DNA of 64,000 nt from Escherichia coli (GTDB lineage Bacteria > Pseudomonadota > Gammaproteobacteria > Enterobacterales > Enterobacteriaceae): NCBI RefSeq assembly GCF_022846255.1, contig NZ_AP025682.1. One strand, written 5' to 3'. The translations under genes were made by a program, and so were the position numbers. The number at the start of each line of letters is the position of its first letter. The stretch's first letter is position 1. The notes below the pieces were generated by a model. The model worked only from the letters and a program-made list of their open reading frames with translations, did no database searches and had not been told where the DNA came from. Below are positions 33,418 to 50,677 of the stretch, in pieces.

Positions 33418-33465
33418 AATAGCCCCTGTAAAATTATGGTTTAGTGAAGCGATCTTAATGAGCAA

Positions 33466-33546: not shown

Positions 33547-34239
33547 ATGCCACATCACATTGTTATTGTTGAAGATGAGCCGGTTACCCAGGCGCGATTA
33601 CAATCTTACTTCACTCAGGAGGGGTATACCGTTTCCGTTACGGCGAGCGGTGCCGGGCTGCGGGAAATTATGCAGAATCAGCCGGTGGATTTGATTCTGC
33701 TGGATATCAATTTGCCCGATGAAAATGGCCTGATGTTAACCCGCGCCCTGCGAGAACGCTCAACGGTGGGGATTATTCTGGTTACCGGACGCAGCGATCG
33801 GATTGACCGTATTGTTGGGCTGGAAATGGGCGCAGACGATTACGTCACCAAACCGCTGGAGCTGCGCGAACTGGTGGTACGAGTGAAAAATTTGCTCTGG
33901 CGAATCGACCTCGCGCGACAGGCGCAACCGCACACTCAGGACAACTGCTATCGCTTTGCCGGTTATTGCCTGAATGTGTCGCGCCATACGCTGGAGCGGG
34001 ATGGAGAGCCGATTAAACTGACCCGCGCAGAGTATGAAATGCTGGTGGCGTTTGTGACCAATCCCGGCGAAATTCTCAGCCGTGAACGTCTGCTGCGTAT
34101 GCTCTCTGCGCGTCGGGTGGAAAACCCTGACCTGCGCACCGTCGATGTGTTAATTCGTCGTTTACGCCATAAACTCAGTGCAGATTTACTGGTGACACAA
34201 CATGGCGAAGGTTATTTCTTAGCCGCTGATGTGTGCTGA
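33547..34239 (+). CDS. torR: TorR OmpR-family response regulator
   Basis: 230-aa ORF with receiver and winged-helix domains. Confidence 0.97.
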   Translation: MPHHIVIVEDEPVTQARLQSYFTQEGYTVSVTASGAGLREIMQNQPVDLILLDINLPDENGLMLTRALRERSTVGIILVTGRSDRIDRIVGLEMGADDYVTKPLELRELVVRVKNLLWRIDLARQAQPHTQDNCYRFAGYCLNVSRHTLERDGEPIKLTRAEYEMLVAFVTNPGEILSRERLLRMLSARRVENPDLRTVDVLIRRLRHKLSADLLVTQHGEGYFLAADVC

Positions 34240-35240: not shown

Positions 35241-35294
35241 GATAGCCTCATCAATAATAAGGCTTTATGCTAGATGCATTCTGCTTTGCGACTC

Positions 35295-35465
35295 AACCTT
35301 TTTCACCTAAAGGATGACAAAATCACATAAATAATTTAAAAATCATAGCATTAGATTACTTAATGATTAAATAATAGACTGCAAAACGCGACAAAACACA
35401 ACATATCCAGTCACTATGAATCAACTACTTAGATGGTATTAGTGACCTGTAGCAGAGCATTAGCG
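35295..35465. mobile_element. Prophage attR (POB'): HK022-type core plus lambda-type P arm
   Basis: The reverse complement of 35296-35313 is CTTTAGGTGAAAAAGGTT, which I recall as the HK022 att core. Bases 35391-35460 (ACAAAACACAACATATCCAGTCACTATGAATCAACTACTTAGATGGTATTAGTGACCTGT) are near-identical to the lambda attP P arm. They include arm-type sites CAGTCACTAT (35409-35418, P2) and the reverse complement CAGGTCACTAAT (P1, ~35447-35458). The spacing from P1 to the core is ~145 bp, as in lambda. Confidence 0.8.
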
Positions 35466-35499
35466 CAAGGTGATTTTTGTCTTCTTGCGCTAATTTTTT
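35463..35499 (+). terminator. Lambda tI / sib-region hairpin, separated from int in the prophage
   Basis: GCGCAAG-gtgatttttgtctt-CTTGCGC followed by TAATTTTTT. The flanking sequence out to ~35560 matches the lambda sequence just left of attP as I recall it. Confidence 0.7.
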
Positions 35500-35766
35500 G
35501 TCATCAAACCTGTCGCACTCCAGAGAAGCGCAACGCCTCGCAATCCAGTGCAAAGCTTTGCGTGCCCCCACTACGACCTGCATAACCAGTAAGAAGATAG
35601 CAGTGATGTCAAACGACGCAGCTGACTTCTTTTCTTTCACGACTTCCCCACACCCAGCATGCATACCTTTCTGCCATAACTGTAGTGAATGTCTGCTATG
35701 AGCGAGGAGTGATCATTAGCCTCTCAGCCGGATGCCTTAGAGTACGCCAGAAATAAAAGGATTGCG

Positions 35767-36960
35767 CTACTGCGCCTTCCTGTTTTGACGGGATGTGGCA
35801 TATGTCATCGCTACCGCTCCCAGAAGTAACAAACCACTTAAACCAAAAGCACTTCTCCATCCCAGACTGTCGAATACCAGACCTCCAGCTGTTGAACCAA
35901 GTGCAATAAATAACTGAATCACCGCAACCATGAGGCCTCCCCCCGTCTCTGCATCTTCGGGTAACGCGCGTGCTATCCATGTCCACCACCCCGTTGGCGC
36001 AGCTGTCGCAAGTAGCCCCCACAGGCTGAGTAGAACGGCAACAGCCCAGATATGGTGTCCGACCAGCAGTAGCGCACCGGTAATCGCTGCCATAAGCAAC
36101 GGGATCATGATTAAGGTCTTATAAAATGTGGTGTTCAGGAATGTTGAGACGATCATTGTGCCGACAAAACCTGCTACGCCTATTGCGAGCAAAATCAGAG
36201 AAAGATCAGAAGGTCCCACTCTGGTGACGCTCTCCAGAAAGGGGCGCACGTAGGTAAATAAAGCAAACTGTCCCATAAAGAAGAGTCCGCAGGCCAGCAG
36301 TCCCGTTGGTACGATGGCAACGCTGAACAGGCGAAGCACAGATCTCTGTGGCTTTTGTGTTTTATCACTTTCCATCGGAGGCAGACTGACCCATTGCCAG
36401 ATGAACGCAGCTATCGCAAGGGGGACCAGACATAAAAAGGCCCCACGCCAACCGATGGTTGTCCCCAGATAGCTACCAAGCGGCGCTGCTACAACGGTGG
36501 CCAGCGCGTTGCCGCCGTTAAAAATTGCCAGTGCGCGGGAAACCTGGTGCTGCGGCACGAGCCGAATGGCGGTTGCAGCCGACATTGACCAGAACCCTCC
36601 GATGACAACACCAATCAGAGCCCTCCCCAGCATATAAATCGGATAGTCAGGTGCTATAGTGATAATTATTCCCGATATGGCCATTAAGACCGTCAGTCCT
36701 AGCAAAAGATATTTTCGATCCAGGTCTCCGACAATACGGGAGATAGTCAGACTGGTAAGCACCGCCAGCGCACCAGAGACAGCAATTCCTTGCCCTGCCA
36801 GCCCTTCGGTAACGTGCAAATCATGGGCAATGAGCGTAAGCAGGCTGACTGGCATAAACTCAGAAGCGATCAGCACAAACACGCAAAGCGTCATGGCGAA
36901 TACGCCGCTCCAGTATGCATGCGTTTTTCCGTATGATTGTTTGAGACTTACAGTGGACAT
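35767..36960 (-). CDS. MFS transporter (12-TMS, DHA1/sugar-efflux-like)
   Basis: 397-aa polytopic ORF with an MFS-type loop motif (GDLDRKYLLLG) and ~12 hydrophobic segments. Confidence 0.8.
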   Translation of the reverse strand: MSTVSLKQSYGKTHAYWSGVFAMTLCVFVLIASEFMPVSLLTLIAHDLHVTEGLAGQGIAVSGALAVLTSLTISRIVGDLDRKYLLLGLTVLMAISGIIITIAPDYPIYMLGRALIGVVIGGFWSMSAATAIRLVPQHQVSRALAIFNGGNALATVVAAPLGSYLGTTIGWRGAFLCLVPLAIAAFIWQWVSLPPMESDKTQKPQRSVLRLFSVAIVPTGLLACGLFFMGQFALFTYVRPFLESVTRVGPSDLSLILLAIGVAGFVGTMIVSTFLNTTFYKTLIMIPLLMAAITGALLLVGHHIWAVAVLLSLWGLLATAAPTGWWTWIARALPEDAETGGGLMVAVIQLFIALGSTAGGLVFDSLGWRSAFGLSGLLLLGAVAMTYATSRQNRKAQ

Positions 36961-37137
36961 TATTAGCCCCCCTTAATATCGAACCAGCCAGATTCAGGCG
37001 CAGTCGGGTCAGAAGTTATTCAGGGAATAACGACATAATAGTTGGGTGAGAATAGAGGGCGATGCGGCATATTCTGCATCACACCAGACAGTTAAAAGCC
37101 ACCCGTTTACGACAGGTGGCCTGGTAAACCTTTCGGG

Positions 37138-38289
37138 TTATCTTAAGTTTGCCTTGAAAAATTGCTCAAATTTGGCAAATGGGATCTTACCCGCAACGTT
37201 GTCGTACAGATCAACATGGTTTGCCCCGGGGACAATCACTAACTCTTTCTCTTTGCTGCCGATTGCCTTAAAGGCATCTTCAGCAAAATAGCGTGAATGG
37301 GCTTTTTCACCGGTCACGATGAGTGTAGGGATAGTAACTTCATTAGCATAACTCAGCAGCGGCATATTCATAAATGACAGCGGCATGGTTGCATTCCAAG
37401 CACTGGTTGAGTTGACCGAACGCGCATGGAAACCACGCGGCATGCGGTAATAATCAAAGAACTCTTTCAATACCGGATTTGGATTCGCTGGCAGAGTTTC
37501 CGGCAAAATACGATCGGAAGCGGTGACGTTGCCCTTCTCATCAACGTAAATATCATGCCCGCCTGGCGCGAAAGCGCCATTTTCAGCATCCTTCCAGCGC
37601 TGCATGTTCAGATACTGCAATACGGCACGACGATCGGCAGTGGTGTAGCGGTCTTTGCCATCGCCCACGCCATGCCCCATTGCACGGCTCATGTCATACA
37701 TCACGCTGCTCGCCACCGCCTTGACACGTGTGTCCATCGCGGCGTCGTTTAAGGCCATGCCACCCCATCCGCAGATGCCGAGCAACCCGATACGGTTGCG
37801 ATCCACCTCTTTTTGCAGGCCTAAGAAATCAACCGCCGCGCTGAAATCCTCGGTGTTGATATCCGGAGATGCGACGTTTCGCGGGTAGCCGCCGCTTTCA
37901 CCCGTGTATGAAGGGTCAAAAGCCAGAGTGACAAACCCCCGTTCAGCCAGCGTCTGCGCATACAGGCCACTGGATTGCTCTTTCACCGCCCCGAAGGGGC
38001 CACTAACAGCAATAGCTGCCAGCTTGCGATCGCCACGATCCTTCGGTATATAGAGATCCCCGACTAAGGTGATCCCGTACCGGTTCGGAAAGGTCACCTT
38101 ACGGTGATCAACTTTCGTGCTCTCAGCAAACGTTTTATCCCATTTCTCGACCTGCGAAACGGGCGCGTTCGGATTGGTTGTATCAGCGTAACTCATATTT
38201 GTGACTCCATTTAATGATACGCATAACAGCATGGCGGGTATCGCAGCTGTCAATTTTTGGGTGAAAGCAGTCATCAAAATTCCCCTCAT
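37138..38289 (-). CDS. Exported alpha/beta-fold hydrolase (dienelactone-hydrolase-like)
   Basis: 383-aa ORF with an N-terminal signal-like segment (AIPAMLLCVSLNGVTNMSYA). It has a candidate nucleophile elbow IGLLGICGWGG and a C-terminal VPGANHVDLY His motif. Confidence 0.7.
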   Translation of the reverse strand: MRGILMTAFTQKLTAAIPAMLLCVSLNGVTNMSYADTTNPNAPVSQVEKWDKTFAESTKVDHRKVTFPNRYGITLVGDLYIPKDRGDRKLAAIAVSGPFGAVKEQSSGLYAQTLAERGFVTLAFDPSYTGESGGYPRNVASPDINTEDFSAAVDFLGLQKEVDRNRIGLLGICGWGGMALNDAAMDTRVKAVASSVMYDMSRAMGHGVGDGKDRYTTADRRAVLQYLNMQRWKDAENGAFAPGGHDIYVDEKGNVTASDRILPETLPANPNPVLKEFFDYYRMPRGFHARSVNSTSAWNATMPLSFMNMPLLSYANEVTIPTLIVTGEKAHSRYFAEDAFKAIGSKEKELVIVPGANHVDLYDNVAGKIPFAKFEQFFKANLR

Positions 38290-38357
38290 AAAATGTGCCA
38301 GATACTGGTTTCAGACGGATAACACTGCTGTGCTTTGTTGCAACGTGCACATTATAG

Positions 38358-38376
38358 TTAGCATTAATAGTGCTAA
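38358..38376. promoter_or_regulatory. Candidate LysR-type operator in the divergent promoter
   Basis: Perfect dyad TTAGCA-N7-TGCTAA (T-N11-A type) between the hydrolase gene and the LysR gene. Confidence 0.55.
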
Positions 38377-38444
38377 TTAGAGGGTAAAAAATGCTAAGAT
38401 TAATAACATATTGTTCTTAATCGTGATGCAGCAGCAGAGGAAGG

Positions 38445-39332
38445 ATGATGGCGAAACGGGAAAACTATAACGATCTCTATCTGTTTATGAAGGTCGTGCG
38501 AGAAGGGAGTTTTACCGCCGCCGCGCAGAGGCTTGGCCTGGCGCAGTCAGGAATTAGCCGTGCAGTGCGCGAGCTGGAAGAGCGACTGGGCGTGCAGCTT
38601 CTAGTACGCACCACGCGCAAGTTATCGCTCACCCATGCCGGCGAGTTATTCTATCGAAACGTCGAATCTGGATTTGACGCCTTAGATATGGGGCTTGCCA
38701 CGCTGGCCCATTATCGCCATACACCATCGGGTACGGTCCGAATTAATGCGAGCCAGCATGCCATTGATAAAGTGCTTCTGCCGAAGCTGGCGGTGTTTAA
38801 ACAACGATACCCGGATATTCGGCTGGAGCTCATCAGCGAAAGCCGGTTTGTCGATATTATTACTGAGCGCTTCGATGCCGGTATACGTCTGGGCTCGGAA
38901 GTGGATAGCGGTATGGTTGCGGTGCGCATTTCGCCCGATATGGAGATGGCCGTTGTCGGCACACCCGAGCACTTTCGTCGCTACGGATTTCCGCAAACCC
39001 CCACCGATTTAGTGGGTCATCCCTGCATCGCTTACCAGTTCGGCGACGGCAGCCTGTATGCCTGGGAACTCAATCAGGACGGTAAAAAGATCACCCATCA
39101 GCCTCAGGGACAATGGGCCTTTGCTGACAGTTATATGGAAGCCAAAGCCGCGAGGCTAGGTCTGGGACTGGCTTATGTTCCGGAGGAATTGGTGTCTGAT
39201 GATATAGAACAGGGGGCGCTGATCAGAGTTTTGCAATGCTACAGCCAACGCCTGGCAGGTTCATATATCTATTATCCGCACAGAAATGTGTCACCCGCTC
39301 TACGAGCGGTTATCGATACATTGAGAATTTAA
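38445..39332 (+). CDS. LysR-family transcriptional regulator
   Basis: 295-aa ORF with an N-terminal wHTH (FMKVVREGSFTAAAQRLGLAQSGISRAVRELEERLGVQLLVRTTR) and a LysR substrate-binding domain. It is divergent from the hydrolase-MFS pair. Confidence 0.9.
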   Translation: MMAKRENYNDLYLFMKVVREGSFTAAAQRLGLAQSGISRAVRELEERLGVQLLVRTTRKLSLTHAGELFYRNVESGFDALDMGLATLAHYRHTPSGTVRINASQHAIDKVLLPKLAVFKQRYPDIRLELISESRFVDIITERFDAGIRLGSEVDSGMVAVRISPDMEMAVVGTPEHFRRYGFPQTPTDLVGHPCIAYQFGDGSLYAWELNQDGKKITHQPQGQWAFADSYMEAKAARLGLGLAYVPEELVSDDIEQGALIRVLQCYSQRLAGSYIYYPHRNVSPALRAVIDTLRI

Positions 39333-40217
39333 GGGATGAAGATGAGATGATTCGCAGGCCTGGGTAATAGTTGGAAAACAACGTCCGTTCCTGGCACAGA
39401 GCAGACCATCGGACTAAACTGAAGGTCCTCTCTGTGCGAGAAACGGAAGTTAGCAATTGTGATACAGACGTGGGGCATTACTCGCTTTACAGTGTGTTAA
39501 TCAATTGGAAACAGGTCAGAATTTATTGGGTGGAATGACACCTTTAAACTTCTTGCGCATCGCAAGGAATATCTCCACCAGACGGTAAGACAGTAGATTG
39601 CGCCACAAGTCCTCAGAATGCCCTTTGCTGGGTTAACCACACGTCGTAATCATCCTTCCAGTGCAGCGGATCAAGATCCGTAATGCTCATAGTCACGCGA
39701 TTTCAAATACAAGCCCAGTGGTGTTATCCGTGAGCTGGACAGTGCTTCCGGCAACATGACTGAGACAGACAAAAAATCAGTTAGTACAGCATTGACTCAG
39801 GTTGAGCAGGAGTTAAAACAAACTGGGCTGGAGCAGTAGAAGCCTGCAGTGAATTCCCTGAATCAGGCGATTAAGTTGGCTTAAGAGTCCGTGTATGCCA
39901 TGTGCCGCGAGATGTCGTGCTATACGTGAAAGTCAGCGATATATATCGTTTTGAAGATGATTTAGGTTACGGGAGTGTCTCTGGGTGATGTATTACTTCA
40001 TCGACATCGGCTACGCACGGGTTGCCGCGATGCAGCGGATGGAAGCTGTCTGGGAAAAGAAAGCTCCGCTTGCTAATATTAGTACATCCGATGAAAAATC
40101 GTGTGTGAAAGTTGCAGATTCGTAATATACTAATGAAGAATGGAGATGTATTTTATATAATAAAAACATCTAAGTAGAGCTTTTTATTTTAAATCCTTCA
40201 TTATTACTGGAGATTTT
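39333..40217. other. ORF-poor 0.9-kb segment with short broken reading frames
   Basis: No ORF of 60 aa or more on any frame. Only fragments of ~26-50 codons are present, for example ATG 39756 to TAG (MTETDKKSVSTALTQVEQELKQTGLEQ*), ~39985-40126 (+, ~46 aa) and ATG 39690 (-, 26 aa). Confidence 0.5.
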
Positions 40218-41996
40218 ATGGGTTTTTATAATGACGCACTGAGTAAAATATATAGTGAAGATGATGATTTCCTAATTATAGGATTAACAGGGAGGACGGG
40301 GTCAGGCTGTTCAACAGTTTCTAATATACTGTCATCAGAATCAAGTGAGATAAAGCATTCTCTATTTAACGGTGATTACCCTAAGTCGAATGAAGAAAGA
40401 AAAGAGCGGGTTCTATTTAAATATTTTTCCGTGTCATGGGTTCCATTTATAAAGATACAAGCAAGTTCCATACTGACATTGTGTTTATCAAAGGACTTTG
40501 ATGGTAAGCTGAATAAATTTATTCGGGAAGTGACGGAGTTAGGTAATGACCAAAGAATCCTAGAGTCAACAGTTAATGATCTTGAATCTATACTAAAAGA
40601 AATTAAAGCTAAAGATGAAAGCTCTGATCATGATATAGATGATAAGATAAAATTCATAAATGAATATCTAATAAAAGCGAATACACAAATTAAATCCATA
40701 TTTAAGAACAAGGCTGACTATATAAAACTATATCAAGCTATAGGTAATAATTATAGATCTAGTGGGATGTACCATGACAGTTCATTTAGTGATGATTTCC
40801 ATGGTTTTTTTCTTCCTAAAAAAATAAATGATATAATTCAAAGATTAAGAACCTTAGCAAAAGAAAAGAACACAAAAACTGGAGAAAAGAAACCTATTTA
40901 TATAGTTATTGATGCTATAAGAAATCCGTTCGAAGCAACATACTTCCAAGATAGATACTCATCATTTTATTTAATGGCTGTTTCTACAGAAGAGCATTAC
41001 AGGCATCAAAGGCTTAGAGAACAAGGTTTAACTGATGCTGAGATAAAAGATATTGATGCAAAAGAATACCGTAAATCATCTTTGGATGAGAAGTCATCAT
41101 ATATATATCAGAATATACAGTCTTGTTTAGAAATATCAGACATCTATGTTGAGAATCCGGAAGAGGAAAATGTTGTTTGTCGGTACTCAGGATTGGCTAA
41201 TCAATTAATTAAATTCACTTCATTAATGAAGCGTCCCGGTATAATAACTCCATCAAATGTTGAACGTTGCATGCAGATAGCATATACAGCTAAGTTGAAC
41301 TCTGGTTGTATATCCAGGCAGGTAGGCGCTGCAGTATCTGATAGTTCATTTTCAATTAAGTCTATTGGTTGGAATGATGTACCAAGTGGTCAAGTTCCTT
41401 GCTCTTTAAGGGATAGGTTTGATTTGTCTGAGGGGATTGATGATATTGCTTACTCTGAATTCGAAAAGAACGAAAATAGTTTCATTCGAAAAATAGATAG
41501 CACTAAGATTATTTTTTTAGATGTTAAAAATAAAGGAATGAGAGCTCCATTTTGTTTTAAAACAGAATGGAATAATATCCTTGATGATAAATACAAAGAA
41601 GATCTACGGGTCGAGCATAAGTTAAATGATGATGAGTTTGCTATTATTGACAAAATAAAGTCTAACGCTAATCAAGTTTTTACAAGATCACTTCATGCTG
41701 AAGAGAATGCTTTCTTACAAATATCTAAGTATGGTGGCGTTGGTATACAGAATGGTTTTTTGTTCACAACAGCAAGCCCTTGTGAATTATGTTCTAAAAA
41801 AGCGTATCAATTAGGGATCAAACAAATATATTACATAGATCCATACCCTGGTATAGCAATGAGGAATATTTTAAACGCAGGGAGCAATAAACCATTGCTT
41901 AAGCTTTTCAATGGTGCAATAGGTAAGGCATTCCATAATTTTTACACGCCAAGAATGGCTTATAAAGATGAGCTTTCAGCAAGATCTAGGGGGTGA
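40218..41996 (+). CDS. P-loop NTPase-like + dCMP/cytidine deaminase fusion protein (AvcD/DcdV-like dCTP-deaminase defence candidate)
   Basis: 592-aa ORF with a GGAG SD 6 nt upstream of the ATG. It has a P-loop GLTGRTGSGCST (aa 22-33), the motif IVIDAIRNPFEATYF, and the zinc deaminase signature H493-A-E495...P521-C522-E-L-C525. That signature is preceded by GCISRQVGAAV...IGWNDVPSG. The gene is strongly AT-rich relative to its neighbours. Confidence 0.85.
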   Translation: MGFYNDALSKIYSEDDDFLIIGLTGRTGSGCSTVSNILSSESSEIKHSLFNGDYPKSNEERKERVLFKYFSVSWVPFIKIQASSILTLCLSKDFDGKLNKFIREVTELGNDQRILESTVNDLESILKEIKAKDESSDHDIDDKIKFINEYLIKANTQIKSIFKNKADYIKLYQAIGNNYRSSGMYHDSSFSDDFHGFFLPKKINDIIQRLRTLAKEKNTKTGEKKPIYIVIDAIRNPFEATYFQDRYSSFYLMAVSTEEHYRHQRLREQGLTDAEIKDIDAKEYRKSSLDEKSSYIYQNIQSCLEISDIYVENPEEENVVCRYSGLANQLIKFTSLMKRPGIITPSNVERCMQIAYTAKLNSGCISRQVGAAVSDSSFSIKSIGWNDVPSGQVPCSLRDRFDLSEGIDDIAYSEFEKNENSFIRKIDSTKIIFLDVKNKGMRAPFCFKTEWNNILDDKYKEDLRVEHKLNDDEFAIIDKIKSNANQVFTRSLHAEENAFLQISKYGGVGIQNGFLFTTASPCELCSKKAYQLGIKQIYYIDPYPGIAMRNILNAGSNKPLLKLFNGAIGKAFHNFYTPRMAYKDELSARSRG

Positions 41997-42453: not shown

Positions 42454-42797
42454 TTTTAATTCTTATTAAATTATTGCAGCAAGTCGCTGCACTCTAGTCA
42501 TATGACCCCATGCTAAACCTAATTGTTGAGCTAAGTCATAATTTCGATTATTTGATGAACGTAAGTTATTTGACAGGCAGAATTAACCATACACAGTAAT
42601 ATCCGTTTCTGGCACATAGCAGTCCTATAGATAGTGGCATACAGTCATAGATGGTCGATTGGAGGAGGTGCAAATTCTCCCATACAAAAAATACGTAAAA
42701 TCAATAACAGCTGGAAATTATTTAATAATCAAATTATCGGAAGTTCACCAGCCAGCCGCAGTATTCTGCCACGACAAGTTGCTGCGGCTTTTTATGT

Positions 42798-43098: not shown

Positions 43099-43800
43099 TC
43101 AGATATCACTTCGGGAAGTTGATAACAACTTTAATTCTGACTCAAGTTCATCAACTCTTTCAGTCAGTTTCTGGATATGGTGAATCAGTGGAACAACCAG
43201 ACGTTCGTACATTACACCTTCGACAACAAGGCCATTGCTGGAAATAGCTTCAGGAGCATCATCTTCGTTAGCTGGTCGCCAGTGTACAAACTGAGGAGCA
43301 ATTTCTCCCACTTCCTCGGCAATCAATCCGTAGAATCCCCAGTCACTCCTGTCATTTTCGCATTGCGACCTGTACCACACAGGGCGCATCCTGAAAATGA
43401 GATCGGCGTGCTCTGAATCTATTGTCTCTACTGAATGTTTATAGCGAATAGACGATGTTGACCGCAGTACAGACGAAATTGCAGGGTCAGGATTAAGATA
43501 AAGATTTGCCGCCGCTGTAGTCGTGCCCAATTCCCATAAATAAAACGCTTCACGGCCAGTCAGCGGGTAAAAATCTCCACCATAACGACCGCTTTCCAGA
43601 TCGTTCACTTCCAGTTTGTTTTTCAGCTTATTATCAACTTCAGTTTTTGTGTATCTGGTGCTGATATCCTGCTTTGCACTGGTCATATCAGTCTGAAGCG
43701 TTGATACTTTTCCGTTAATTGAGGAAATATCTTCCTTAGTTTTACTGACATCTCCCTTTAGCGTGGTGATATCTCCTGGAATTACTGTCGATGTAGCCAT
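43099..43800 (-). CDS. Short tail-fibre/tailspike-like protein with a C-terminal S74-type intramolecular chaperone domain
   Basis: 233 aa. The N-terminus has coiled-coil heptads (ITTLKGDVSKTKEDISSINGKVSTLQTDMTSAKQDIS). The C-terminal block STSSIRYKHSVETI...GLIAEEV...LESELKLL is typical of the auto-cleaving chaperone domain. Confidence 0.7.
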   Translation of the reverse strand: MATSTVIPGDITTLKGDVSKTKEDISSINGKVSTLQTDMTSAKQDISTRYTKTEVDNKLKNKLEVNDLESGRYGGDFYPLTGREAFYLWELGTTTAAANLYLNPDPAISSVLRSTSSIRYKHSVETIDSEHADLIFRMRPVWYRSQCENDRSDWGFYGLIAEEVGEIAPQFVHWRPANEDDAPEAISSNGLVVEGVMYERLVVPLIHHIQKLTERVDELESELKLLSTSRSDI

Positions 43801-43809
43801 TTGTCTCCC

Positions 43810-44091
43810 TCACATCCAGCCACGAAGTTGATGCTCAACAACAACCGCATATTTATCGAATATTGACGATTTTTTTGCATCATTAATGATGCGCACGTTT
43901 ACAAAATATCCGTCTTCCTTAACACATACCGGTTCGCCATCTTCAGTCAGTTCTCCGGTTTCTTTGTACACGTTACCTATCACGTCAATAAGAATATTAT
44001 CCTGCATCGACTCGTCATCATAATAGCCAGTGCTCTCCATAAAGGCCGAAAAGTCGGCCCTGTCTGCAAATTTGAGTGTTAAATCTTTCAT
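43810..44091 (-). CDS. Hypothetical 93-aa protein, translationally coupled to the side tail fibre gene
   Basis: TAATG overlap with the upstream gene. It occupies the tfa position but does not resemble lambda Tfa as I recall it. Confidence 0.6.
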   Translation of the reverse strand: MKDLTLKFADRADFSAFMESTGYYDDESMQDNILIDVIGNVYKETGELTEDGEPVCVKEDGYFVNVRIINDAKKSSIFDKYAVVVEHQLRGWM

Positions 44092-46466
44092 TAGATTGAC
44101 TCCCCCACCTGAGCATCAGTCAATGCCTTGTGCCATATTCTGAAATTCCTGACATGACCAAATAAATGACGTAACCCGGCAGTAGTCTGGCCTCCAATAC
44201 GGATAATTGCGGTGTTCTGAATACAGGACCATGTGGTTTTTGTTTCGCTGGATATACGCCCGTTACTTACTGAGCACGTAGACTGATCTGACTTTACACG
44301 CATCCCCATAACCATTTTTTCAAGCGATGCGTTTTCGTTTACCCGTCTGTTAGCTCCTCCAATATCGCAATAAGGAAATCCGTCGTAATCTGTTGAACGA
44401 CCGAAGCCAAGAATAATAGCCGCTCCGGTTTGATGACCGCCGGTGTCAAAAACACGCGGAGCTGCATTTGGCGTTTTATACCAGTTCTTATGTACCTCAC
44501 AAAGAACCGTAAAAGGAAGATTATAAAGATTATTCTTAATGGGAACTGTAACTATATCGCTTGCGCGGGTCGCCGCCGTCGTTCCTGATATAATAAAAGA
44601 TGATACACAAGGCCCATTTTCTACTTGTGGGGTGGCCAGATAAATATAGTCACCAGATACGGTTGCCCCGCCCTGCTTAGGAGAATACTGTATCTGAGAA
44701 CCTATTTTTAACTCCCCATCAATTGCCTGAATTGTTGCCTCTGCAAAAATCCATCCGGTAGCTTCGTCCTTTCTGACTCTCGCAGTAATCCTTGAGGCAG
44801 CACCGCCTGTCATATTAATTTCAAGCGTTTGTGTATCAATATACGCATCACCAAGAAAAGTTGTTGCGCTACCGTCATATTTATCAAACCGGATACGCAA
44901 CCTTACCTGCAGTTCTGTTTTAAAACGACATGAGGTTGTCACGTGTTTATTATCGCCTGAGACATCAACTGACTTTGTTGCAGCAATTGATGCCATATTA
45001 ATGGCTGAGGTTTGCCCAATCAGAGAATCGTTGCAGACAAACTTTCCATAGGTAAAACCAAAACTATCCGTCCCTGTTTCGGGCACATCCATATTTGACG
45101 ATCGCCCCCAACTGGCAGGGTTTTCCGAATTGAGCATGTAGTTTGTTCTTTGCCCCTCAATAAGCAGGCCATCACGTTCAAACCGTGGCTCGTCAATGGC
45201 AGCCTCTGTCAGCACACCAGATTTATTAATGTAAGTTGCTTTTGATGCGCGTTTAAACTTTACAACCTTATCGCCAGGCATCGTTATTTCATCATCACCA
45301 ATAACAATCTTTTTATATGACGGCGAAAAGCCCGTAATCATATCCAGTGAATCGTTAAACGGTATCCACACATCGGGAAGCGGCTGCAATACTTGTTTAT
45401 ACGGCTCCGCAGCCTGGCTTGCATACTCTCTGGCTGCGTCTTCACTTGCTTTTGCAGCCGTCTGGCTTGCAGCGGATGCTTTCGCCGAGTTAGCCGCCGC
45501 AGTCTCGCTCGCCTTTGCGTTGGTTTCACTGGTTTTTGCAGCTTTTTGACTGTTGGCTGATGCAGTGGCAGAAGCAGCCGCCGCGCTTGCAGAGCCAGCT
45601 GCAGCACTCTCGCTTTCGGCTGCTGCATCCTGACTGCTTTTCGCCGCAGTTTCACTGGCTTTGGCATTCGTTTCGCTGGTTTTCGCTGCCGTCTGGCTGG
45701 ACTTTGCGTTGGTTTCGCTGGTTTTTGCAGCTTTTTGACTGTTGGCTGATGCAGTGGCAGAAGAAGCCGCCGCACTTGCAGAACCAGCTGCAGCACTCTC
45801 GCTTTCGGCTGCTGCATCCTGACTGCTTTTCGCCGCAGTTTCACTGGCTTTGGCATTCGTTTCGCTGGTTTTCGCTGCCGTCTGGCTGGACTTTGCGTTG
45901 GTTTCGCTCGTCTTTGCGGCTGTCTCGCTGTTTTTCGCATTGGTTTCTGATTTTTTGGCTGCTGTCGCGGAGTTTGCCGATGCAGTCTGTGAGGTCGCTG
46001 CCGCCTGTGCGCTGTTAGCTGCATTCGTTTCTGAGGTTTTCGCCGCGTTCTTCGATGATGCCGCTGCAGTTTCGGATTTCTTTGCCGCCGCTGCGCTCTG
46101 AGAGGCGGCTTCGGCGTTGCGTGCCGCTTCTTCCACCATTTCCTGAAAACGGCGCAATGCCTCCGGCATGACATCATCTTCCGTCATGGCACCGAGAAAA
46201 TCATTCAGCGTCCCCGGACTGGAACCTTCATAGACGGTAATGGTCCCAACATGTGATGGCTGAGAACCCTCAATCCACAGGATGACGCTGTACTGACCAT
46301 ACTCAACGTCCATACTGTAACGCCCGGCTTCATCAGGATTTTCAGAGGTCACCGTGTTCACCAATACCGTGGTGCTGTTACGCTTTGCCTTCAGTTGAAT
46401 AGTGCAGTTCTGTATTGGTTTTCCCGCACCATCTTTCAGCACACCTGAGATTTTTACTGCTGCCAT
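44091..46466 (-). CDS. stf: Side tail fibre (lambda Stf-like N-terminus, different C-terminal receptor-binding region)
   Basis: The N-terminus MAAVKISGVLKDGAGKPIQNCTIQLKAKRNSTT...YSMDVEYGQYSV matches lambda Stf. The middle is Ala/Ser/Thr/Lys/Glu repeats. The C-terminal end LFGHVRNFRIWHKALTDAQV looks LamG/lectin-like. The ATG at 46466 has a GGAG upstream. Confidence 0.88.
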   Translation of the reverse strand: MAAVKISGVLKDGAGKPIQNCTIQLKAKRNSTTVLVNTVTSENPDEAGRYSMDVEYGQYSVILWIEGSQPSHVGTITVYEGSSPGTLNDFLGAMTEDDVMPEALRRFQEMVEEAARNAEAASQSAAAAKKSETAAASSKNAAKTSETNAANSAQAAATSQTASANSATAAKKSETNAKNSETAAKTSETNAKSSQTAAKTSETNAKASETAAKSSQDAAAESESAAAGSASAAASSATASANSQKAAKTSETNAKSSQTAAKTSETNAKASETAAKSSQDAAAESESAAAGSASAAAASATASANSQKAAKTSETNAKASETAAANSAKASAASQTAAKASEDAAREYASQAAEPYKQVLQPLPDVWIPFNDSLDMITGFSPSYKKIVIGDDEITMPGDKVVKFKRASKATYINKSGVLTEAAIDEPRFERDGLLIEGQRTNYMLNSENPASWGRSSNMDVPETGTDSFGFTYGKFVCNDSLIGQTSAINMASIAATKSVDVSGDNKHVTTSCRFKTELQVRLRIRFDKYDGSATTFLGDAYIDTQTLEINMTGGAASRITARVRKDEATGWIFAEATIQAIDGELKIGSQIQYSPKQGGATVSGDYIYLATPQVENGPCVSSFIISGTTAATRASDIVTVPIKNNLYNLPFTVLCEVHKNWYKTPNAAPRVFDTGGHQTGAAIILGFGRSTDYDGFPYCDIGGANRRVNENASLEKMVMGMRVKSDQSTCSVSNGRISSETKTTWSCIQNTAIIRIGGQTTAGLRHLFGHVRNFRIWHKALTDAQVGESI
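45514..45891 (-). repeat. Two tandem 189-bp (63-codon) in-frame repeats inside stf
   Basis: TTTGCGTTGGTTTC(A/G)CTGGTTTTTGCAGCTTTTTGACTG... recurs at 45514 and 45703. A diverging third copy starts at 45892. The protein repeat is KSSQTAAKTSETNAKASETAAKSSQDAAAESESAAAGSASAAA.SATASANSQKAAKTSETNA. Confidence 0.9.
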
Positions 46467-46475
46467 ATCCACTCC

Positions 46476-46504
46476 ACAAAAAAGCCCGCCTGAACCGGCG
46501 GGCT
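46476..46504 (-). terminator. Rho-independent terminator after lom
   Basis: Minus strand: AGCCCGCC-ggttca-GGCGGGCT followed by TTTTTTGTGG. Confidence 0.8.
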
Positions 46505-46530
46505 GTCATAACACTGTGTTACCTGGCTAA

Positions 46531-47130
46531 TCAGAACTTATAACCGACACCCACGATGAAACCGTCAGTGCGCCAGTCGCCACTGCCGGAGCCTTCATAA
46601 GCAATATCAATGGCCACGGATTCGGTCGGGTTAAACTGCACGCCAGCTCCCCACGCCAGAGACGTGTTGCTGTGGCGATCGTCATCACTTCCGGTCAGCA
46701 CATCGTGCGTTTTCCCCTTGTTGTCAGTTACGCGGAGATAATCCCCGGAGAACGTCGAAACACGGCTGTAAGCCACACCTGCCATCGCATAAGCACTGAA
46801 CCATTCATTCACGCGTACAGATGGCCCCGCCATCATGCTGAACCAGCGGTTACGCACTGAATCTTCATGCCAGCGGGTATCGCTGTAATGCGTTTTTTGC
46901 TCATCTTTGGCATTGGCATAACTGAATGACGTCACCAGCCCCAGCGTGTCCGTAAACTCATAACGGTATTTCACGTTAATCCCGTTCAGATCATCGCTGC
47001 CTGGCATATCAGTATGGGTCTGAAGATACCCGGCGCTTAGTGTGGACTGATGCTCTGCTGCGCTTGCTGGCGTACCAGCGGCAACCAGCCAGACTACTGC
47101 GGACAGAATAACAGCACATAATTTACGCAT
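46531..47130 (-). CDS. lom: Lom (Ail/Lom-family outer-membrane beta-barrel protein)
   Basis: 199 aa with a signal peptide and a terminal ...GVGYKF. It occupies the lambda lom position after J. Confidence 0.93.
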   Translation of the reverse strand: MRKLCAVILSAVVWLVAAGTPASAAEHQSTLSAGYLQTHTDMPGSDDLNGINVKYRYEFTDTLGLVTSFSYANAKDEQKTHYSDTRWHEDSVRNRWFSMMAGPSVRVNEWFSAYAMAGVAYSRVSTFSGDYLRVTDNKGKTHDVLTGSDDDRHSNTSLAWGAGVQFNPTESVAIDIAYEGSGSGDWRTDGFIVGVGYKF

Positions 47131-47153
47131 AATTACCTCTCGCTTTTCTGCAA

Positions 47154-47178
47154 TAAAAAAGGCGTCATTTCTGACGCC
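47154..47178 (-). terminator. Rho-independent terminator after J
   Basis: Minus strand: GGCGTCA-gaaa-TGACGCC followed by TTTTTTATT. Confidence 0.8.
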
Positions 47179-47197
47179 CGTATTGGGGTTATAAAAT

Positions 47198-50100
47198 TCA
47201 GCTGATACTGATGCCTGCGGTGGCTTTCTTCATCACCACAACCAGCAAATCGCTGATACTTGCTGTGGGATACCAGTCATTTACCAGCCATGCTGACACC
47301 GAAAACTCCAGCGTCATGTGACCGTGACCGGCAGGCATATCAATAACGCCACTGTAAATCAGCGTATTATCCAACGCGGTACGGTTATAAATTTCAGCAC
47401 CGTTTTTCCGCACTATCAGACGGCATGAGGAGTAAATATCAGTATGCTCTCTCTCATGTTTAGCGCCGCTGAATGCCACCGCCGGAATAACAATCTGCCG
47501 GTCAAACGGCTGATCGTCATAAATCCTGACGGTAATGGTCCCTGATGGCCACCGTTCCGGTGCACGGGAGTCCCGGGGGAAAGCTTTGCCCACTGTTTTA
47601 ACGAGATCGCCTTCAATCTGGTTCGCGGACAGTTTTCCCAGAACCCGGCAGTTCTCGTTAATCGTGACGTTGTTGAGCGTCCCGGAGTTCGCATTCACGT
47701 TACCGCTGATATCGGCATTTTTCGCCGTCAGCCGCCCGTCCGGTGTCAGGGAAAATGCCGGAGGATTACCGCCGCTGGTAATGGTGGGAGCCGTCAGATA
47801 TTTCAGGAACACTTCGTTCATGAATATCTGATCGCCCTGACCAACAAACATCGGCTTTGTGTTGCCATTTGCAGGATTAACCATCGCAATCCTGTCCGCC
47901 GCCAGCAGCACCTGACTCTGCATGCCGTCAGGGGTGTTCTCAATACCGGCACCAATACCCGCGATATAAAGGCGTCCGTCCCGCATCTGCTGCAGCTTCA
48001 CAGCCCACATGCTGTTCAGGTTATTATTTGTATCAACCTGAACCTTCTGTATCTGCTGAATTGCCGCACTCTGGTCTTCCAGTTTCTTATTGACGGTCTG
48101 CGTGATTTCATTGCTGACACCCGTAATGGACGTCCTGATTTCAGCCAGGTCAGGCGCAAGCTGACCGTTATCAATCTGCGTCCACAACTCCTGAGCCAGA
48201 TGGGTTTTCCCTATCTCTCCTTTGAAAAAATTCAGATAGCCGGATGCATCATCACTCGGCTGGCCAACAGCCTCCACAAATGCCGATTTGCCAACGGTGT
48301 TCACACTGCGGATGTAAAAATAATAATCATGGCCCGGTTTGATATTGATACTGGCGGCTATCCAGTACAGCGCCGTGCCAAGATAGCGTGCTGTGGTTTC
48401 AACCTGCCTGATATCCGCAATCCGCTTTTCCGAGAACCAGAACTCAAACTGTACCGTCGGATCATAAACCGCAAGATGCGGCGTGGCGGTTATCTGAAAA
48501 TACCCCGGTGTCAGCTCAATCTGCGACGGCGCTGCCGGTGCGGCAATCCGGAACGATACCGATGCCGGATCGCCCTGCTGCCCCCACGCATTTACCGCCC
48601 GGACTGTCAGCCTGTAGTTCCCCAGCGCCAGTTGCCTGAAGCGGTATGTGGTTTCCGTCGTCCGGGCCATGCTGACCAGCCGCTCACTGCCGTCGTCCGC
48701 TGCCACGGTAAGGCGAAGCAGGAAGCTCACGCCCTTCACCACCTTCGGCGTGTCCCATCGCGCCAGCACCTGATATTCCCCGCTGTCTGCGGTGACTTCG
48801 GCGGTCAGGTGCTGCACCGCTGGCGGCGTGACACCATTCACCGTGCCGCTCTGGTCGCCGTCAAAGTGCGCCCCGTTATCCACGATGGCTTCTTTTTCCG
48901 GTACATGCTGCACGGCGGTGATGGCATACGTACCGTCATCGTTCTCCCGGATACTCACACAGCGGAACAGGCGCTGGCGCAGCGTCGGCAGCTTCAGCCC
49001 CCATACGCTGTATTCAGCAACACCGTCAGGAACACGGCTCACTTTCACCTTCACGCCGTCGGTGACGGACTGAACCTCCACGCTGACCGGACTCCCCTGC
49101 CCGTCAACCAGGCTTATCAGCGTGGTGCCGGAGGATGGCAGCGTGATTTCACGGTCGAGCGTCAGCGTCCGGGTCTGGCTGTTTACCGCCAGCACGCGCC
49201 CGCCGGTGCTGATACCGGCATAGTCATCATCACAGATTTCAATGACATCGCCCGGCACATGGCGAAGCCCTTCTGCGCCCACGCTGAAGTCCACGGTCTG
49301 CGTTTCCAGCAGTTCTGTTTTAATCAGCCACAGCCCGGCGCGGTGTGCCTGCCCCCGGCTGGTACAGCCAAAAGCATCCATCTTCGTGACGTTACGACCG
49401 TAACGGGCAATGGCCTGCGTGTCCTCCACAAGCTCTGTCGCCGTCTCCCAGCCGTTGTTCGGGTCAATCCAGTTCACCTCAACGGCATTATGGCGGTCTT
49501 TCAGGGCGCTGAAGCTGTAGCGGAACGGCGCGCCATCATCCGGCATCACCACATTACTGCGGTTATAGGTCCACACCTTATCCGACGGTCGGTCCTGCAC
49601 GAACGTCAGCGTCTGCCCGTTCCATACCGGCATACAGCGCATCGCCGAGCAGAAATCACTGAGCACATCCCACGCCTTGCGCTGTGTGGTCAGGTACGCA
49701 TTACAGGTGATGCGCGGCTCCGTGCCGCCAAAACCGTCCGGCACTGACTGGTCGCAATACTGGCCGATGACATACAGCGCCCATTTATCCACATCTGCCG
49801 CACCAAGACGTTTCCCCATGCCGTAGCGCGGGTGGGTCAGCATATCCCACAGACACCAGGCCATGTTGTTGCTGTATGCTGGCTTAAACGTTCCGTCCCA
49901 GATACCGCTGTATTGCCGCGTCTGCGGGTTATAGTTCGACGGCACCTGCAGAATACGCCCGCGCAGATGATAATTACGGCTCACCTGCTGGCTGCCGAAC
50001 TGCTCCGAATCCACCTGCACGCCGACCAGTGCCGTGTTCGGGTAGCACTGTTTCACATCGATGATTTCGGTGTATGACGACCAGAGCGTTTTGTTCTGCA

Positions 50101-50677
50101 GCTGGTCTGTGGTGCTGTCCGGCGTCATCCTGCGCATCCGGATATTAAACGGGCGCGGCGGCAGGTTATCCACCACCACCGAGGCCAGATACTGCGAGGT
50201 GGTTTTGCCCTTAATGGTGATGTCTTTTTCCGTCACCCAGCCACCGTTACGTTGTATCTGAACCAGCAGGCGGACTTCCGATGGATTCCTGTCCCCCTTT
50301 GAGGTGGTTTCCACCAGTGCCTGCACACCGAAGGTAAAGCGCAGACGGTCGATGTTTGCCGACGTGATGGTGCGGGTGATCGGCGTGTCGTATTTCACTT
50401 CCGTACCCAGCACCGTCTCGGAACCGGAGGATTCAAATCCCTCCGGCGGTGTCTGCTCCTGCTCACCTGCCCGGAACACCACCGTGACACCGGAGATGTT
50501 GGTATTCCCCTCACTGTCCAGCACCGGCGTACTGTTCAGCAGCACGCTTTTTAATCCATCCACCGGACCTTCAACCGGCCCTTCACTGATGGCATCAATC
50601 ACACTCAGCAACTGCGTGGATTTCAGGTTGTCCTTCGCTTCGCGCGGGGTATGCCCCTTACTGCTGCCTTTACCCAT
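47198..50677 (-). CDS. J: Tail tip/host-specificity protein J
   Basis: 1159 aa. The N-terminus [34 protein letters not shown] matches lambda gpJ. Confidence 0.96.

What the first reader, a model, noticed from the sequence alone, without database searches (positions are those of the whole stretch)
35767..39332. Metabolic-looking cargo (LysR regulator, exported alpha/beta hydrolase, MFS transporter) inside prophage boundaries
The attR core, P arm and tI/sib remnant end at ~35560. The next genes are an MFS transporter, a signal-peptide-bearing alpha/beta hydrolase and a divergent LysR regulator with a perfect TTAGCA-N7-TGCTAA dyad in the shared promoter. The hydrolase has a GICGWGG elbow, possibly a Cys nucleophile as in dienelactone hydrolases. 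They lie between attR and the tail-fibre module, so they are formally prophage cargo in the b-region position. However, they have core-like G+C and the organisation of a small catabolic or detoxification operon, not of typical phage morons. Either the phage has captured a chromosomal operon, or a rearrangement has placed chromosomal DNA inside the prophage.
Basis: partly seen in the sequence, partly recalled or inferred. Interest (0 to 1): 0.5.

Follow-up and report, generated by a model that had tools for sequence, protein, structure and literature searches.

The report
Mobile hydrolase–pump cassette inside a prophage
The three "metabolic" genes are one intact 3.7-kb accessory cassette that travels between phages, islands and plasmids; it lies in a swap-slot of this lambda-like E. 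coli prophage, bounded by the inverted repeats already known around the fun(Z) gene of phage P2.

Summary
The window carries an MFS exporter (35767-36960, -), an exported Cys-elbow alpha/beta hydrolase (37138-38289, -) and a divergent LysR regulator (38445-39332, +) with a perfect dyad. They start 379 bp inside a genuine HK022-type attR next to torT.

The trio is not displaced chromosomal DNA. It is a discrete cassette (35691-39406), 97.5-99.1% identical and with the same ends in four settings:
- P2-like phages, including the isolated phages vB_YpM_115 and vB_YpM_117
- CP4-like islands (98 E. coli genomes)
- another lambdoid prophage
- here

A 93.5% identical copy lies on a Kosakonia plasmid. 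Motif-free chromosomal copies in Klebsiella and Kluyvera point to its origin.

Its ends are 24-bp palindromic motifs, which I call S and W. They also bracket fun(Z) in P2 and ea59-ea31 in lambda. A second cassette, an anti-phage dCTP deaminase, follows in tandem.

In IMG/VR the motifs bracket at least 65 cargo families, both defence and detoxification-like, with a strict S-cargo-W order. A 200-aa tyrosine recombinase that always sits inside such junctions is a candidate, untested, exchange enzyme.

Verdict: a new member of a known kind. The substrate is unknown.

The parts
35296..35312 (.). HK022-type att core; the chromosome/prophage junction (attR) next to torT
   Evidence: Identity to the unoccupied K-12 torT-torS spacer ends at 35312. 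Other E. coli strains carry a P22-like prophage at the same site.
35313..35690 (.). Phage P arm (Int arm sites) and sib/tI terminator
   Evidence: Window 35393-35709 is 97.5% identical to lambda 27644-27327. The sequence was read. The distance from the S motif to the core is as in lambda (about 385 nt).
35691..35714 (+). Left cassette boundary, 'S' motif GTCTGCTATGAGCGAGGAGTGATC
   Evidence: Homology to lambda ends here and homology to the trio in all other contexts starts here. Scored by the motif scan.
35767..36960 (-). MFS transporter, DHA1/NepI-like exporter (397 aa)
   Evidence: Pfam MFS_1 E 8.9e-39. NCBIfam NepI 279 bits against a cut-off of 584, so related but not an equivalog.
37138..38289 (-). 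Exported alpha/beta hydrolase of the PA2218/YcjY family with Cys at the nucleophile elbow (383 aa; alternative start 38274)
   Evidence: PDB 2HDW (PA2218) E 5.5e-123; 5XB6 (YcjY) E 1.7e-42. Cys aligns to the nucleophile Ser of other hydrolases. 33% identical to K-12 YcjY.
38358..38376 (.). Perfect dyad TTAGCA-N7-TGCTAA over the -35 region of the hydrolase promoter; putative LysR site
   Evidence: conserved half-sites and an adjacent conserved TATAAT in orthologous loci.
38445..39332 (+). LysR-family regulator (295 aa), PgrR/YcjZ-like
   Evidence: Pfam HTH_1 + LysR_substrate. 40% identical to K-12 PgrR, E 8e-73.
39383..39406 (+). Right cassette boundary, 'W' motif GTCCGTTCCTGGCACAGAGCAGAC
   Evidence: 0.03 expected by chance. 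The exchange point with SF-468-type DNA lies within positions 10-24.
39407..39448 (+). 18-nt linker (..ACTGAAG) plus a degenerate S-like motif that opens the next cassette
   Evidence: The 42-nt start-to-start spacing is that of 30 of 35 close motif pairs.
40218..41996 (+). Second cassette cargo: anti-phage dCTP deaminase (592 aa, 32-34% G+C)
   Evidence: PADLOC dCTPase E 5.3e-127. NCBIfam NF041025 370.7 bits against a cut-off of 400. for G+C.
42601..42624 (+). W-like motif ATCCGTTTCTGGCACATAGCAGTC that closes the second cassette
   Evidence: It matches the lambda copy at 24327-24349.
43099..50677 (-). Side tail-fibre genes, a Lom-like gene and J of the prophage
   Evidence: ORFs. Peptidase_S74 domain. 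RefSeq annotation of the homologous SF-468 region.

Best explanation
**What it is.** The trio is one intact, self-regulated accessory cassette (window 35691-39406). It sits in the variable slot at the attR end of a lambda-like prophage that uses the HK022 att site beside torT.

**How it probably works (inferred).** A PgrR-like LysR regulator binds the dyad that overlaps the -35 region of a promoter with a good -10 but no usable -35. From there it controls the divergent operon. That operon encodes a secreted, probably periplasmic, Cys-nucleophile alpha/beta hydrolase of the PA2218/YcjY family and a DHA1-type MFS exporter. The lysogen would therefore gain a small inducible module that hydrolyses and exports some compound; the substrate is unknown. 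It is a lysogenic-conversion type of cargo, not a phage function and not a known defence system.

**How it got there.**
- Shown: the cassette is bounded by two 24-bp palindromic motifs, S on the left and W on the right. The same motifs bracket fun(Z) in P2 and ea59-ea31 in lambda.
- Shown: the same cassette with the same ends occurs in P2-like phages, CP4-like islands, another lambdoid prophage and a plasmid.
- Inferred: it entered by exchange at the motifs. It fills the place that ea59-ea31 fill in lambda, and a second cassette (dCTP deaminase) follows in tandem.
- Inferred: it originally came from a chromosomal operon of Klebsiella/Kluyvera-like Enterobacteriaceae.
For: - **Same boundaries, 97.5-99.1% identity, in four contexts:**
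- **Counts in 5426 complete E. coli genomes:** 98 island, 2 P2-like, 2 beside an integrase, 0 like the window.
- **In phage genomes:** present in the complete genomes of the isolated phages vB_YpM_115 and vB_YpM_117, between the tail sheath gene and the downstream tail-fibre genes (the tail-fibre-assembly gene in the RefSeq-annotated P2-like prophage).
- **On a plasmid:** Kosakonia plasmid copy, 93.5% identical.
- **Motifs in reference phages:** they flank fun(Z) in P2 at 15335 and 17432 and ea59-ea31 in lambda at 27322 and 24327. They coincide with the 'left/right inverted repeat' annotated in AJ512676 and AJ512682.
- **Motif specificity:** 0 hits elsewhere in the window and 2 hits in 0.94 Mb of control DNA.
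- **Native context:** motif-free, mobile-element-free trio in K. grimontii and Kluyvera at about 70-79% DNA identity; in Enterobacter only the LysR-hydrolase pair aligned (74%).
- **Real attR:**
- **Regulation:** dyad and -10 conserved.
- **Homologies:**
- **No PADLOC hit for the trio:**
Against: - No expression or phenotype data exist, and the substrate is unknown.
- Packaging is shown only for P2-like phages. The rest of this prophage lies outside the window, so its viability is unknown.
- No complete E. coli genome in the collection has this exact arrangement, so the donor and the order of events cannot be reconstructed.
- The signal peptide was not tested with a predictor.
- K-12 YcjY, the nearest studied relative, is cytoplasmic and linked to murein-peptide recycling. 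That link may not carry over.
Confidence: 0.78

Rival explanations
1. Exchange mechanism A. Cassettes move by site-specific recombination at the S/W junctions. The enzyme is a 200-aa tyrosine recombinase supplied in trans, so the system is integron-like: two junctions in direct orientation excise a circle, and the circle re-enters a junction in another element.
For: - **Strict site order.** 108 of 143 distant motif pairs are S-cargo-W. 30 of 35 close pairs are W-18 nt-S. Tandem arrays exist.
- **Conserved centres, no hairpin covariation.** This points to a protein-recognised duplex site.
- **Short shared stretch at the exchange point.** The window's right-hand exchange lies within at most 15 nt of identity, short for RecA.
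- **Position of the recombinase gene.** It always lies between an S and a W site, in place of the linker. This holds in E. coli, Proteus and marine gammaproteobacteria.
- **Prevalence.** The gene is in 770-919 of 5426 E. coli genomes.
- **Literature.** Nilsson et al. 2004, as summarised in PMC8987985, proposed site-specific recombination at the fun repeats.
Against: - There is no functional evidence.
- The recombinase is absent from the window and from the P2-like phages that carry the trio.
- Only about 6 of 120 viral loci with motifs have it nearby.
- It could be one more cargo gene, or an invertase.
- No circular intermediates or empty single-junction sites were examined.
Confidence: 0.35
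2. Exchange mechanism B. The motifs are conserved boundary or insulator sequences. Cassettes are swapped by homologous or short-homology recombination (RecA, Red/RecET) between co-resident phages and islands, as proposed for PeSL sequences in T4-type phages.
For: - Flanks are often shared well beyond the motif. The right flank is 99.1% identical to SF-468.
- A38 and the islands keep bits of P2-type outer flank.
- Lambdoid phages encode Red.
- No recombinase is consistently adjacent.
Against: - Between unrelated slots (P2 against lambda) the shared sequence is only the 24-mer, with 11-15 nt of uninterrupted identity.
- P2 has no recombination system of its own (my own knowledge).
- The S/W asymmetry and the fixed 42-nt spacing are not explained by this model.
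Confidence: 0.4
3. The segment is E. coli chromosomal DNA trapped by a rearrangement, or the att sequence is a relic unrelated to the present prophage end.
For: - Core-like G+C.
- The gene content looks metabolic.
Against: - The trio is absent from 98% of E. coli genomes and is never in a core context.
- The stretch att core-P arm-sib-S motif-cassettes-tail fibres is colinear with lambda, with lambda spacing.
Confidence: 0.03
4. The trio is itself an unrecognised anti-phage or phage-benefiting system, like many neighbours in these slots.
For: - The slots are rich in defence genes: PD-T7-1/3/5, DarTG, AbiV and TIR domains.
- The adjacent cassette is a dCTP deaminase.
Against: - No PADLOC match.
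- The same operon is a stable chromosomal unit in Klebsiella and Kluyvera among ordinary metabolic genes.
- Other cassettes in these slots carry arsenic-resistance, aldo/keto reductase, lactonase and glyoxalase genes.
Confidence: 0.08

Closest known systems
P2 Z/fun hotspot cassettes flanked by inverted repeats (Nilsson, Karlsson & Haggard-Ljungquist 2004, Mol Biol Evol 21:1; GenBank AJ512676, AJ512682, AJ512685)
   Same: The trio has the same 24-bp S and W motifs at its ends as fun(Z) in P2. In P2-like phages it occupies exactly that slot, between the tail sheath gene FI and the tail-fibre-assembly gene G. The annotated 'left/right inverted repeats' end in these motifs.
   Different: Here the slot is the b region of a lambdoid prophage next to attR, and the cargo is a three-gene regulated operon rather than a single exclusion gene. 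The 2004 paper could not be read here, so I cannot say whether it covered lambda.
Lambda b-region genes ea59-ea31
   Same: Same position relative to sib/attP and to the tail fibres. They are bracketed by the same S motif (lambda 27322-27345) and W-like motif (24327-24349).
   Different: The cargo is unrelated. Lambda has one cassette in this place; the window has two in tandem.
E. coli K-12 pgrR(ycjZ)-ycjY divergent pair
   Same: A LysR regulator (40% identical) lies divergent from a YcjY-family hydrolase (33% identical, Cys elbow GICAGAG). PgrR targets the ycjY/ycjZ spacer (PMC5934670).
   Different: The trio's hydrolase has about 60 extra N-terminal residues with a signal-peptide-like sequence. 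It is followed by an MFS exporter rather than ymjD-ymjC-mpaA. No link to murein-peptide recycling was shown for the trio.
Integron gene cassettes (attC, IntI)
   Same: Tandem arrays of cargo separated by imperfectly palindromic junctions of about 66 nt. There is a candidate small tyrosine recombinase.
   Different: There is no IntI, attI or Pc. Cassettes carry their own promoters and are 0.3-5.7 kb long. The sites show no hairpin covariation. The candidate recombinase is 200 aa and only distantly related to IntI (17 bits).
Pseudomonas aeruginosa PA2218 (PDB 2HDW)
   Same: Closest solved homologue of the hydrolase (E 5.5e-123), with an identical GICGWGG elbow.
   Different: PA2218 has a lipoprotein-type LVGC box and no assigned function.

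Membership tests
Inverted-repeat-flanked accessory cassette of temperate coliphages (P2 Z/fun type) | Lies in a non-essential variable slot between conserved phage modules | tested here: met
   It lies between sib/attR and the tail-fibre genes. In P2-like phages it lies between FI and G.
Inverted-repeat-flanked accessory cassette of temperate coliphages (P2 Z/fun type) | Bounded by the characteristic inverted repeats | tested here: met
   S motif at 35691 and W motif at 39383. The same motifs flank fun(Z) in P2 and end the repeats annotated in AJ512682.
Inverted-repeat-flanked accessory cassette of temperate coliphages (P2 Z/fun type) | The same cargo plus repeats is found in unrelated phages and in bacterial genomes | tested here: met
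   Found in P2-like phages, CP4-like islands, a lambdoid prophage, a Kosakonia plasmid and Klebsiella sp. I138.
Inverted-repeat-flanked accessory cassette of temperate coliphages (P2 Z/fun type) | Moves by site-specific recombination at the repeats | not testable with these tools
   Only indirect evidence: exchange points lie inside the motifs, and there is a candidate recombinase.
LysR-type transcriptional regulator | N-terminal HTH_1 domain plus LysR substrate-binding domain, divergent from its target, with a dyad in the shared promoter | tested here: met
   Pfam E 6.1e-24 and 3.2e-36. Dyad at 38358-38376, conserved across orthologues. DNA binding itself was not tested.
Dienelactone hydrolase family (Cys-His-Asp alpha/beta hydrolases) | Match to the DLH profile above its threshold | tested here: inconclusive
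   PF01738 scores 21.7 bits against a cut-off of 21, over residues 107-194 only. The PETase and Hydrolase_4 profiles score similarly.
Dienelactone hydrolase family (Cys-His-Asp alpha/beta hydrolases) | Cys at the nucleophile elbow | tested here: met
   The Cys aligns with the nucleophile Ser of 8b4u, 9pjb and 7d78. It is conserved in PA2218 and YcjY.
Dienelactone hydrolase family (Cys-His-Asp alpha/beta hydrolases) | His and Asp of the catalytic triad in place; dienelactone activity | not tested
   GANHVD offers a candidate His. The acid residue was not identified, and no structural superposition was run.
NepI purine ribonucleoside efflux pump (the name given in the phage record) | Score above the NCBIfam equivalog cut-off | tested here: not met
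   279 bits against a cut-off of 584. It is a DHA1-type MFS relative, not NepI.
Known anti-phage defence systems (PADLOC) | Match to a defence-system protein model | tested here: not met
   No match for any of the three proteins. The neighbouring gene 40218-41996 matches dCTPase at E 5.3e-127.
Integron | IntI integrase, attI, and attC sites with hairpin-conserving variation | tested here: not met
   No IntI. The small recombinase scores 17 bits against integron-integrase models. The arms show no compensatory variation.

The most novel reading that the evidence does not exclude
The S/W motifs are the sites of a widespread, uncharacterised, integron-like cassette-exchange system of enterobacterial mobile elements. 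The slots seen here are the P2 Z/fun locus, the lambdoid b region, a ren-adjacent slot, CP4-like islands and plasmids. The recombinase would be the highly conserved 200-aa tyrosine recombinase that sits inside S/W junctions and acts in trans. The trio and the dCTP deaminase in this window would be two cassettes it delivered. That would name the enzyme behind the 'site-specific recombination' postulated for P2 in 2004.
Probability: 0.3. Interest if true: 0.8.

Novelty: new member of a known kind. Interest (0 to 1): 0.5.

Why it matters
This is real, transferable phage cargo that also sits in the deposited genomes of isolated P2-like phages, not an assembly or rearrangement oddity.
- It shows that temperate coliphages carry regulated detoxification-like operons by the same route as defence genes.
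- Beyond the trio, the repeats known from P2 also delimit lambda's ea59-ea31 and at least 65 other cargo families, in a fixed order.
- A specific small recombinase gene always occupies such junctions. That turns the 20-year-old question of how these cassettes move into a simple experiment.
- The motifs also give a practical way to delimit accessory cargo, including new defence systems, in prophages.

Tried and rejected
- **Rfam on 35.2-43.2 kb.** Only sub-threshold miRNA-like hairpin hits on the 39379-39454 junction.
- **Hairpin model for the motifs.** The window junction folds well (z -5.6), but a typical junction (L201) does not. Arm positions 4/21 show C-A 26 times against T-A once, so there is no covariation.
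- **Classical transposon.** No target-site duplication flanks the cassette in any context, and the cassette holds no transposase.
- **Consensus promoter/terminator scan.** Uninformative.
- **Literature.** Full-text searches for the motif sequences found nothing. Nilsson 2004 is not held. Searches for YcjY and PA2218 gave no functional study of the hydrolase. A search for integron-like phage cassette systems found nothing matching.
- **Known defence.** PADLOC on the trio was negative.
- **Names in the phage record.** 'NepI' and 'PgrR' were not accepted as identities.
- **Left-hand exchange point.** It could not be narrowed below the 19-nt overlap, because a Kosakonia-type donor motif would explain the whole of it.


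Full report
**1. What is in the window**

The left part of the window is E. coli chromosome. It ends with torC (32245-33465, -), torR (33547-34239, +) and torT (34212-35240, -). The tor region is 99.4% identical to sequenced E. coli strains.

Identity to the unoccupied torT-torS spacer of K-12 stops at 35312, inside CTTTTTCACCTAAAG. I recall that sequence as the HK022 att core. Other strains carry a P22-like prophage at the same point.

Phage DNA follows. Window 35393-35709 is 97.5% identical to lambda 27644-27327, that is the P arm with its Int arm sites and sib/tI. So attR is real and is the end of the present prophage. The order is colinear with lambda: core, P arm, sib, cargo, side tail fibres (43.1-46.5 kb), a Lom-like gene, J (47198-50677). 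The spacing between the first boundary motif and the core is also that of lambda (about 385 nt).

**2. The three genes**

- 35767-36960 (-) is an MFS_1 transporter. It is NepI/DHA1-like but far below the NepI cut-off.
- 37138-38289 (-) is an alpha/beta hydrolase.
  - Its closest solved relatives are P. aeruginosa PA2218 (2HDW, E 5.5e-123) and E. coli YcjY (5XB6, E 1.7e-42).
- The Cys of GICGWGG aligns with the nucleophile Ser of other hydrolases and is conserved in PA2218 and YcjY.
  - Membership of the dienelactone hydrolase family proper is borderline: 21.7 bits against a cut-off of 21.
  - The N-terminus looks like a Sec signal peptide. This is inference only.
- 38445-39332 (+) is a LysR regulator. 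It is 40% identical to K-12 PgrR (YcjZ), and the hydrolase is 33% identical to YcjY. The pair is therefore a paralogue of the divergent pgrR-ycjY unit, whose spacer PgrR binds (PMC5934670).
- The dyad TTAGCA-N7-TGCTAA (38358-38376) is real.
  - Its half-sites and position are conserved in Klebsiella, Kluyvera and Enterobacter.
  - It lies immediately upstream of a conserved TATAAT, with only 14 nt between its upstream half-site (the only -35-like hexamer) and that TATAAT.
  - This is the layout of an activator-dependent LysR promoter.
- None of the three proteins matches a PADLOC defence model.

**3. The trio is a discrete mobile cassette**

BLAST against 5426 complete E. coli genomes finds the trio in 102 of them. 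In every context the homology has the same ends, window 35691 (or 35680) to 39406.

| Context | Where seen |
|---|---|
| CP4-57-like islands (Ag43, CbtA/YeeU, antirestriction) | 98 genomes |
| P2-like prophages, between tail sheath FI and tail-fibre-assembly G | 2 genomes |
| Directly beside the integrase of a lambdoid prophage | 2 genomes (A38, STEC299) |
| The window's own arrangement | 0 genomes |

The phage collection holds the cassette at 99.1% identity in the complete genomes (33.7 and 33.4 kb) of two isolated P2-like phages, vB_YpM_115 and vB_YpM_117. The cassette therefore does travel in phage genomes.

A 93.5% identical copy lies on a Kosakonia cowanii plasmid among phage-like genes. 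An 82.5% identical copy lies in Klebsiella sp. I138 next to an ars operon.

K. grimontii and Kluyvera have a syntenic trio (about 70-79% DNA identity) with no boundary motif; in Enterobacter only the LysR-hydrolase pair aligned (74%). In K. grimontii the neighbours are ordinary metabolic genes. This is the likely native, chromosomal state. The hydrolase family itself is very widespread.

**4. The boundaries**

The left end is GTCTGCTATGAGCGAGGAGTGATC, which I call S. The right end is GTCCGTTCCTGGCACAGAGCAGAC, which I call W. Both belong to one 24-bp palindromic family, GTCYGCT-N10-AGCRGAC. S and W are imperfect inverted copies of each other.

The same pair brackets other known cargo:
- fun(Z) in P2, at 15335 and 17432;
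- ea59-ea31 in lambda, at 27322 and 24327.

The 'left/right inverted repeat' features of the P2-EC30 and P2-EC53 Z-region records of Nilsson et al. end in exactly these motifs. [quoted passage not shown] The boundary structure is therefore a known feature of P2. I could not read the 2004 paper, so I do not know whether it covered lambda.

At up to 7 mismatches the window has four copies and no others: 35691 (S), 39383 (W), 39425 (S-like) and 42601 (W-like). The b region therefore holds two tandem cassettes:
- the trio;
- a low-G+C module encoding an anti-phage dCTP deaminase (40218-41996).

Strain SF-468 has the same deaminase cassette, preceded by a different cargo (DUF4365, an integrase remnant and a hypothetical gene) between the same motifs.

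The exchange that joined the trio to the deaminase module lies inside W. Positions 1-9 are trio-type. Position 21 onward is SF-468-type. The shared stretch is at most 15 nt. On the left, the lambda-type and trio-type homologies overlap by 19 nt inside S.

**5. How general this is**

In those loci:
- 108 of 143 distant neighbouring motif pairs are S-cargo-W;
- 30 of 35 close pairs are W-18 nt-S, with a semi-conserved linker (..ACTGAGCTGAAG);
- arrays hold up to 3-4 cassettes.

There are 65 cargo families of 0.34-4 kb. They include defence genes: PD-T7-1/3/5, PD-T4-2/5, DarTG, AbiV/HEPN, TIR, GmrSD and DUF4365. They also include detoxification-like genes: 4 LysR, 3 MFS, HAD, aldo/keto reductase, SMP-30 lactonase, glyoxalase, ArsB/C, FMN reductase and amidohydrolase. 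Metabolic-looking cargo is therefore normal for this cassette type.

The flanking phage genes show at least three kinds of slot: P2 tail sheath/tail-fibre assembly, a lambdoid Ren-adjacent slot, and lambdoid tail fibres.

The composite junction occurs in 779-1024 of 5426 E. coli genomes. As a control, 0.94 Mb of unrelated loci give 2 hits at up to 6 mismatches.

The motif centres (TGGCAC, TGAGCGA) are nearly invariant, and the arms do not covary. A typical junction does not fold better than shuffled sequence. This argues for a duplex protein-binding site rather than a hairpin.

**6. A candidate recombinase (a lead, not a result)**

A 200-aa tyrosine recombinase with only the catalytic domain lies inside such junctions. 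An S site lies about 39 nt before its start codon and a W site about 18 nt after its stop codon. The gene thus replaces the 18-nt linker.

| Where | Loci |
|---|---|
| Four E. coli contexts | L217; L218/L229; L230; L138 |
| Remnants | SF-468 (L006, L146) |
| Proteus (87% identical protein) | L219-L223 |
| Marine gammaproteobacterial elements, with diverged sites | L224-L228 |

The gene is present in 770-919 of 5426 E. coli genomes. It is absent from the window, from the P2-like phages that carry the trio, and from the E. coli phages in the phage collection. It would therefore have to act in trans. Nothing here shows activity. It could equally be cargo or an invertase.

**7. Verdict**

- The 'prophage cargo' reading is right. 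The 'rearranged chromosomal DNA' reading is wrong.
- The cassette is a new member of a known kind: the inverted-repeat-flanked accessory cassettes of temperate coliphages.
- Its function is inferred as a LysR-controlled secreted hydrolase plus exporter. The substrate is unknown.
- The mechanism of cassette exchange remains open. I rate short-homology recombination at 0.40 and site-specific recombination by the small recombinase at 0.35.

Noticed in passing
window 39425-42624 (gene 40218-41996, +): A second, tandem cassette of 32-34% G+C encodes an anti-phage dCTP deaminase with an N-terminal P-loop and a C-terminal deaminase domain. PADLOC dCTPase scores E 5.3e-127. It is bounded by an S-like motif and a W-like motif. 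The same cassette lies in E. coli SF-468 behind a different first cassette.
   Followed up: partly
lambda J02459 24327-27345 (locus L007): In the lambda reference genome the b-region genes ea31 and ea59 are bracketed by the same W-like and S motifs that bracket fun(Z) in P2. I could not check whether this has been published.
   Followed up: partly
L217 3422-4024; L218 8126-8728; L230 7053-7655; L219-L228 8001-8603: A very conserved 200-aa tyrosine recombinase (77-95% identical across Enterobacterales, Proteus, Idiomarina and Cycloclasticus) always lies between an S and a W site. It is present in about 15% of complete E. coli genomes. It is a candidate enzyme for cassette exchange.
   Followed up: partly
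L218 282-6025 (E. coli Res13-Lact-EA06-22) and L229: A 5.7-kb TonB-dependent receptor plus ABC iron-uptake operon lies between an S and a W motif, next to the small recombinase. Cassettes of this type can therefore be much larger than those seen in phages.
   Followed up: no
IMG/VR loci L092-L211: Twenty of 150 genes that flank motif arrays are Ren-like exclusion proteins. This suggests a third cassette slot in lambdoid phages, near ren/nin. Lambda itself has no motif at 38-46 kb.
   Followed up: partly
L086 3812-4486 and 7001-7936 (Brevundimonas olei): A 59% identical small recombinase, with a linker-plus-S-like sequence (GAGCTGAAG GTCCGCT), lies 2.5 kb from a PA2218-family hydrolase in an alphaproteobacterium. 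This may be coincidence.
   Followed up: no
window 35241-35420; locus L091: The torT-torS att site is shared by unrelated prophages. Strain AR_0017 has a P22-like phage (tailspike, Ant, Arc) at the same junction with the same P-arm start. Some Stx1a phages match the first 277 nt at 87.5%.
   Followed up: partly
window 43099-43800 (-): This 233-aa ORF downstream of the side tail-fibre gene carries a Peptidase_S74 (intramolecular chaperone of endosialidase) domain. That is typical of a self-cleaving tail-fibre C-terminus.
   Followed up: no
L003 9463-10599 (E. coli VTB96959v): In at least one island copy of the trio the hydrolase gene is annotated as a pseudogene (internal stop). The cargo is therefore not maintained everywhere.
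   Followed up: no
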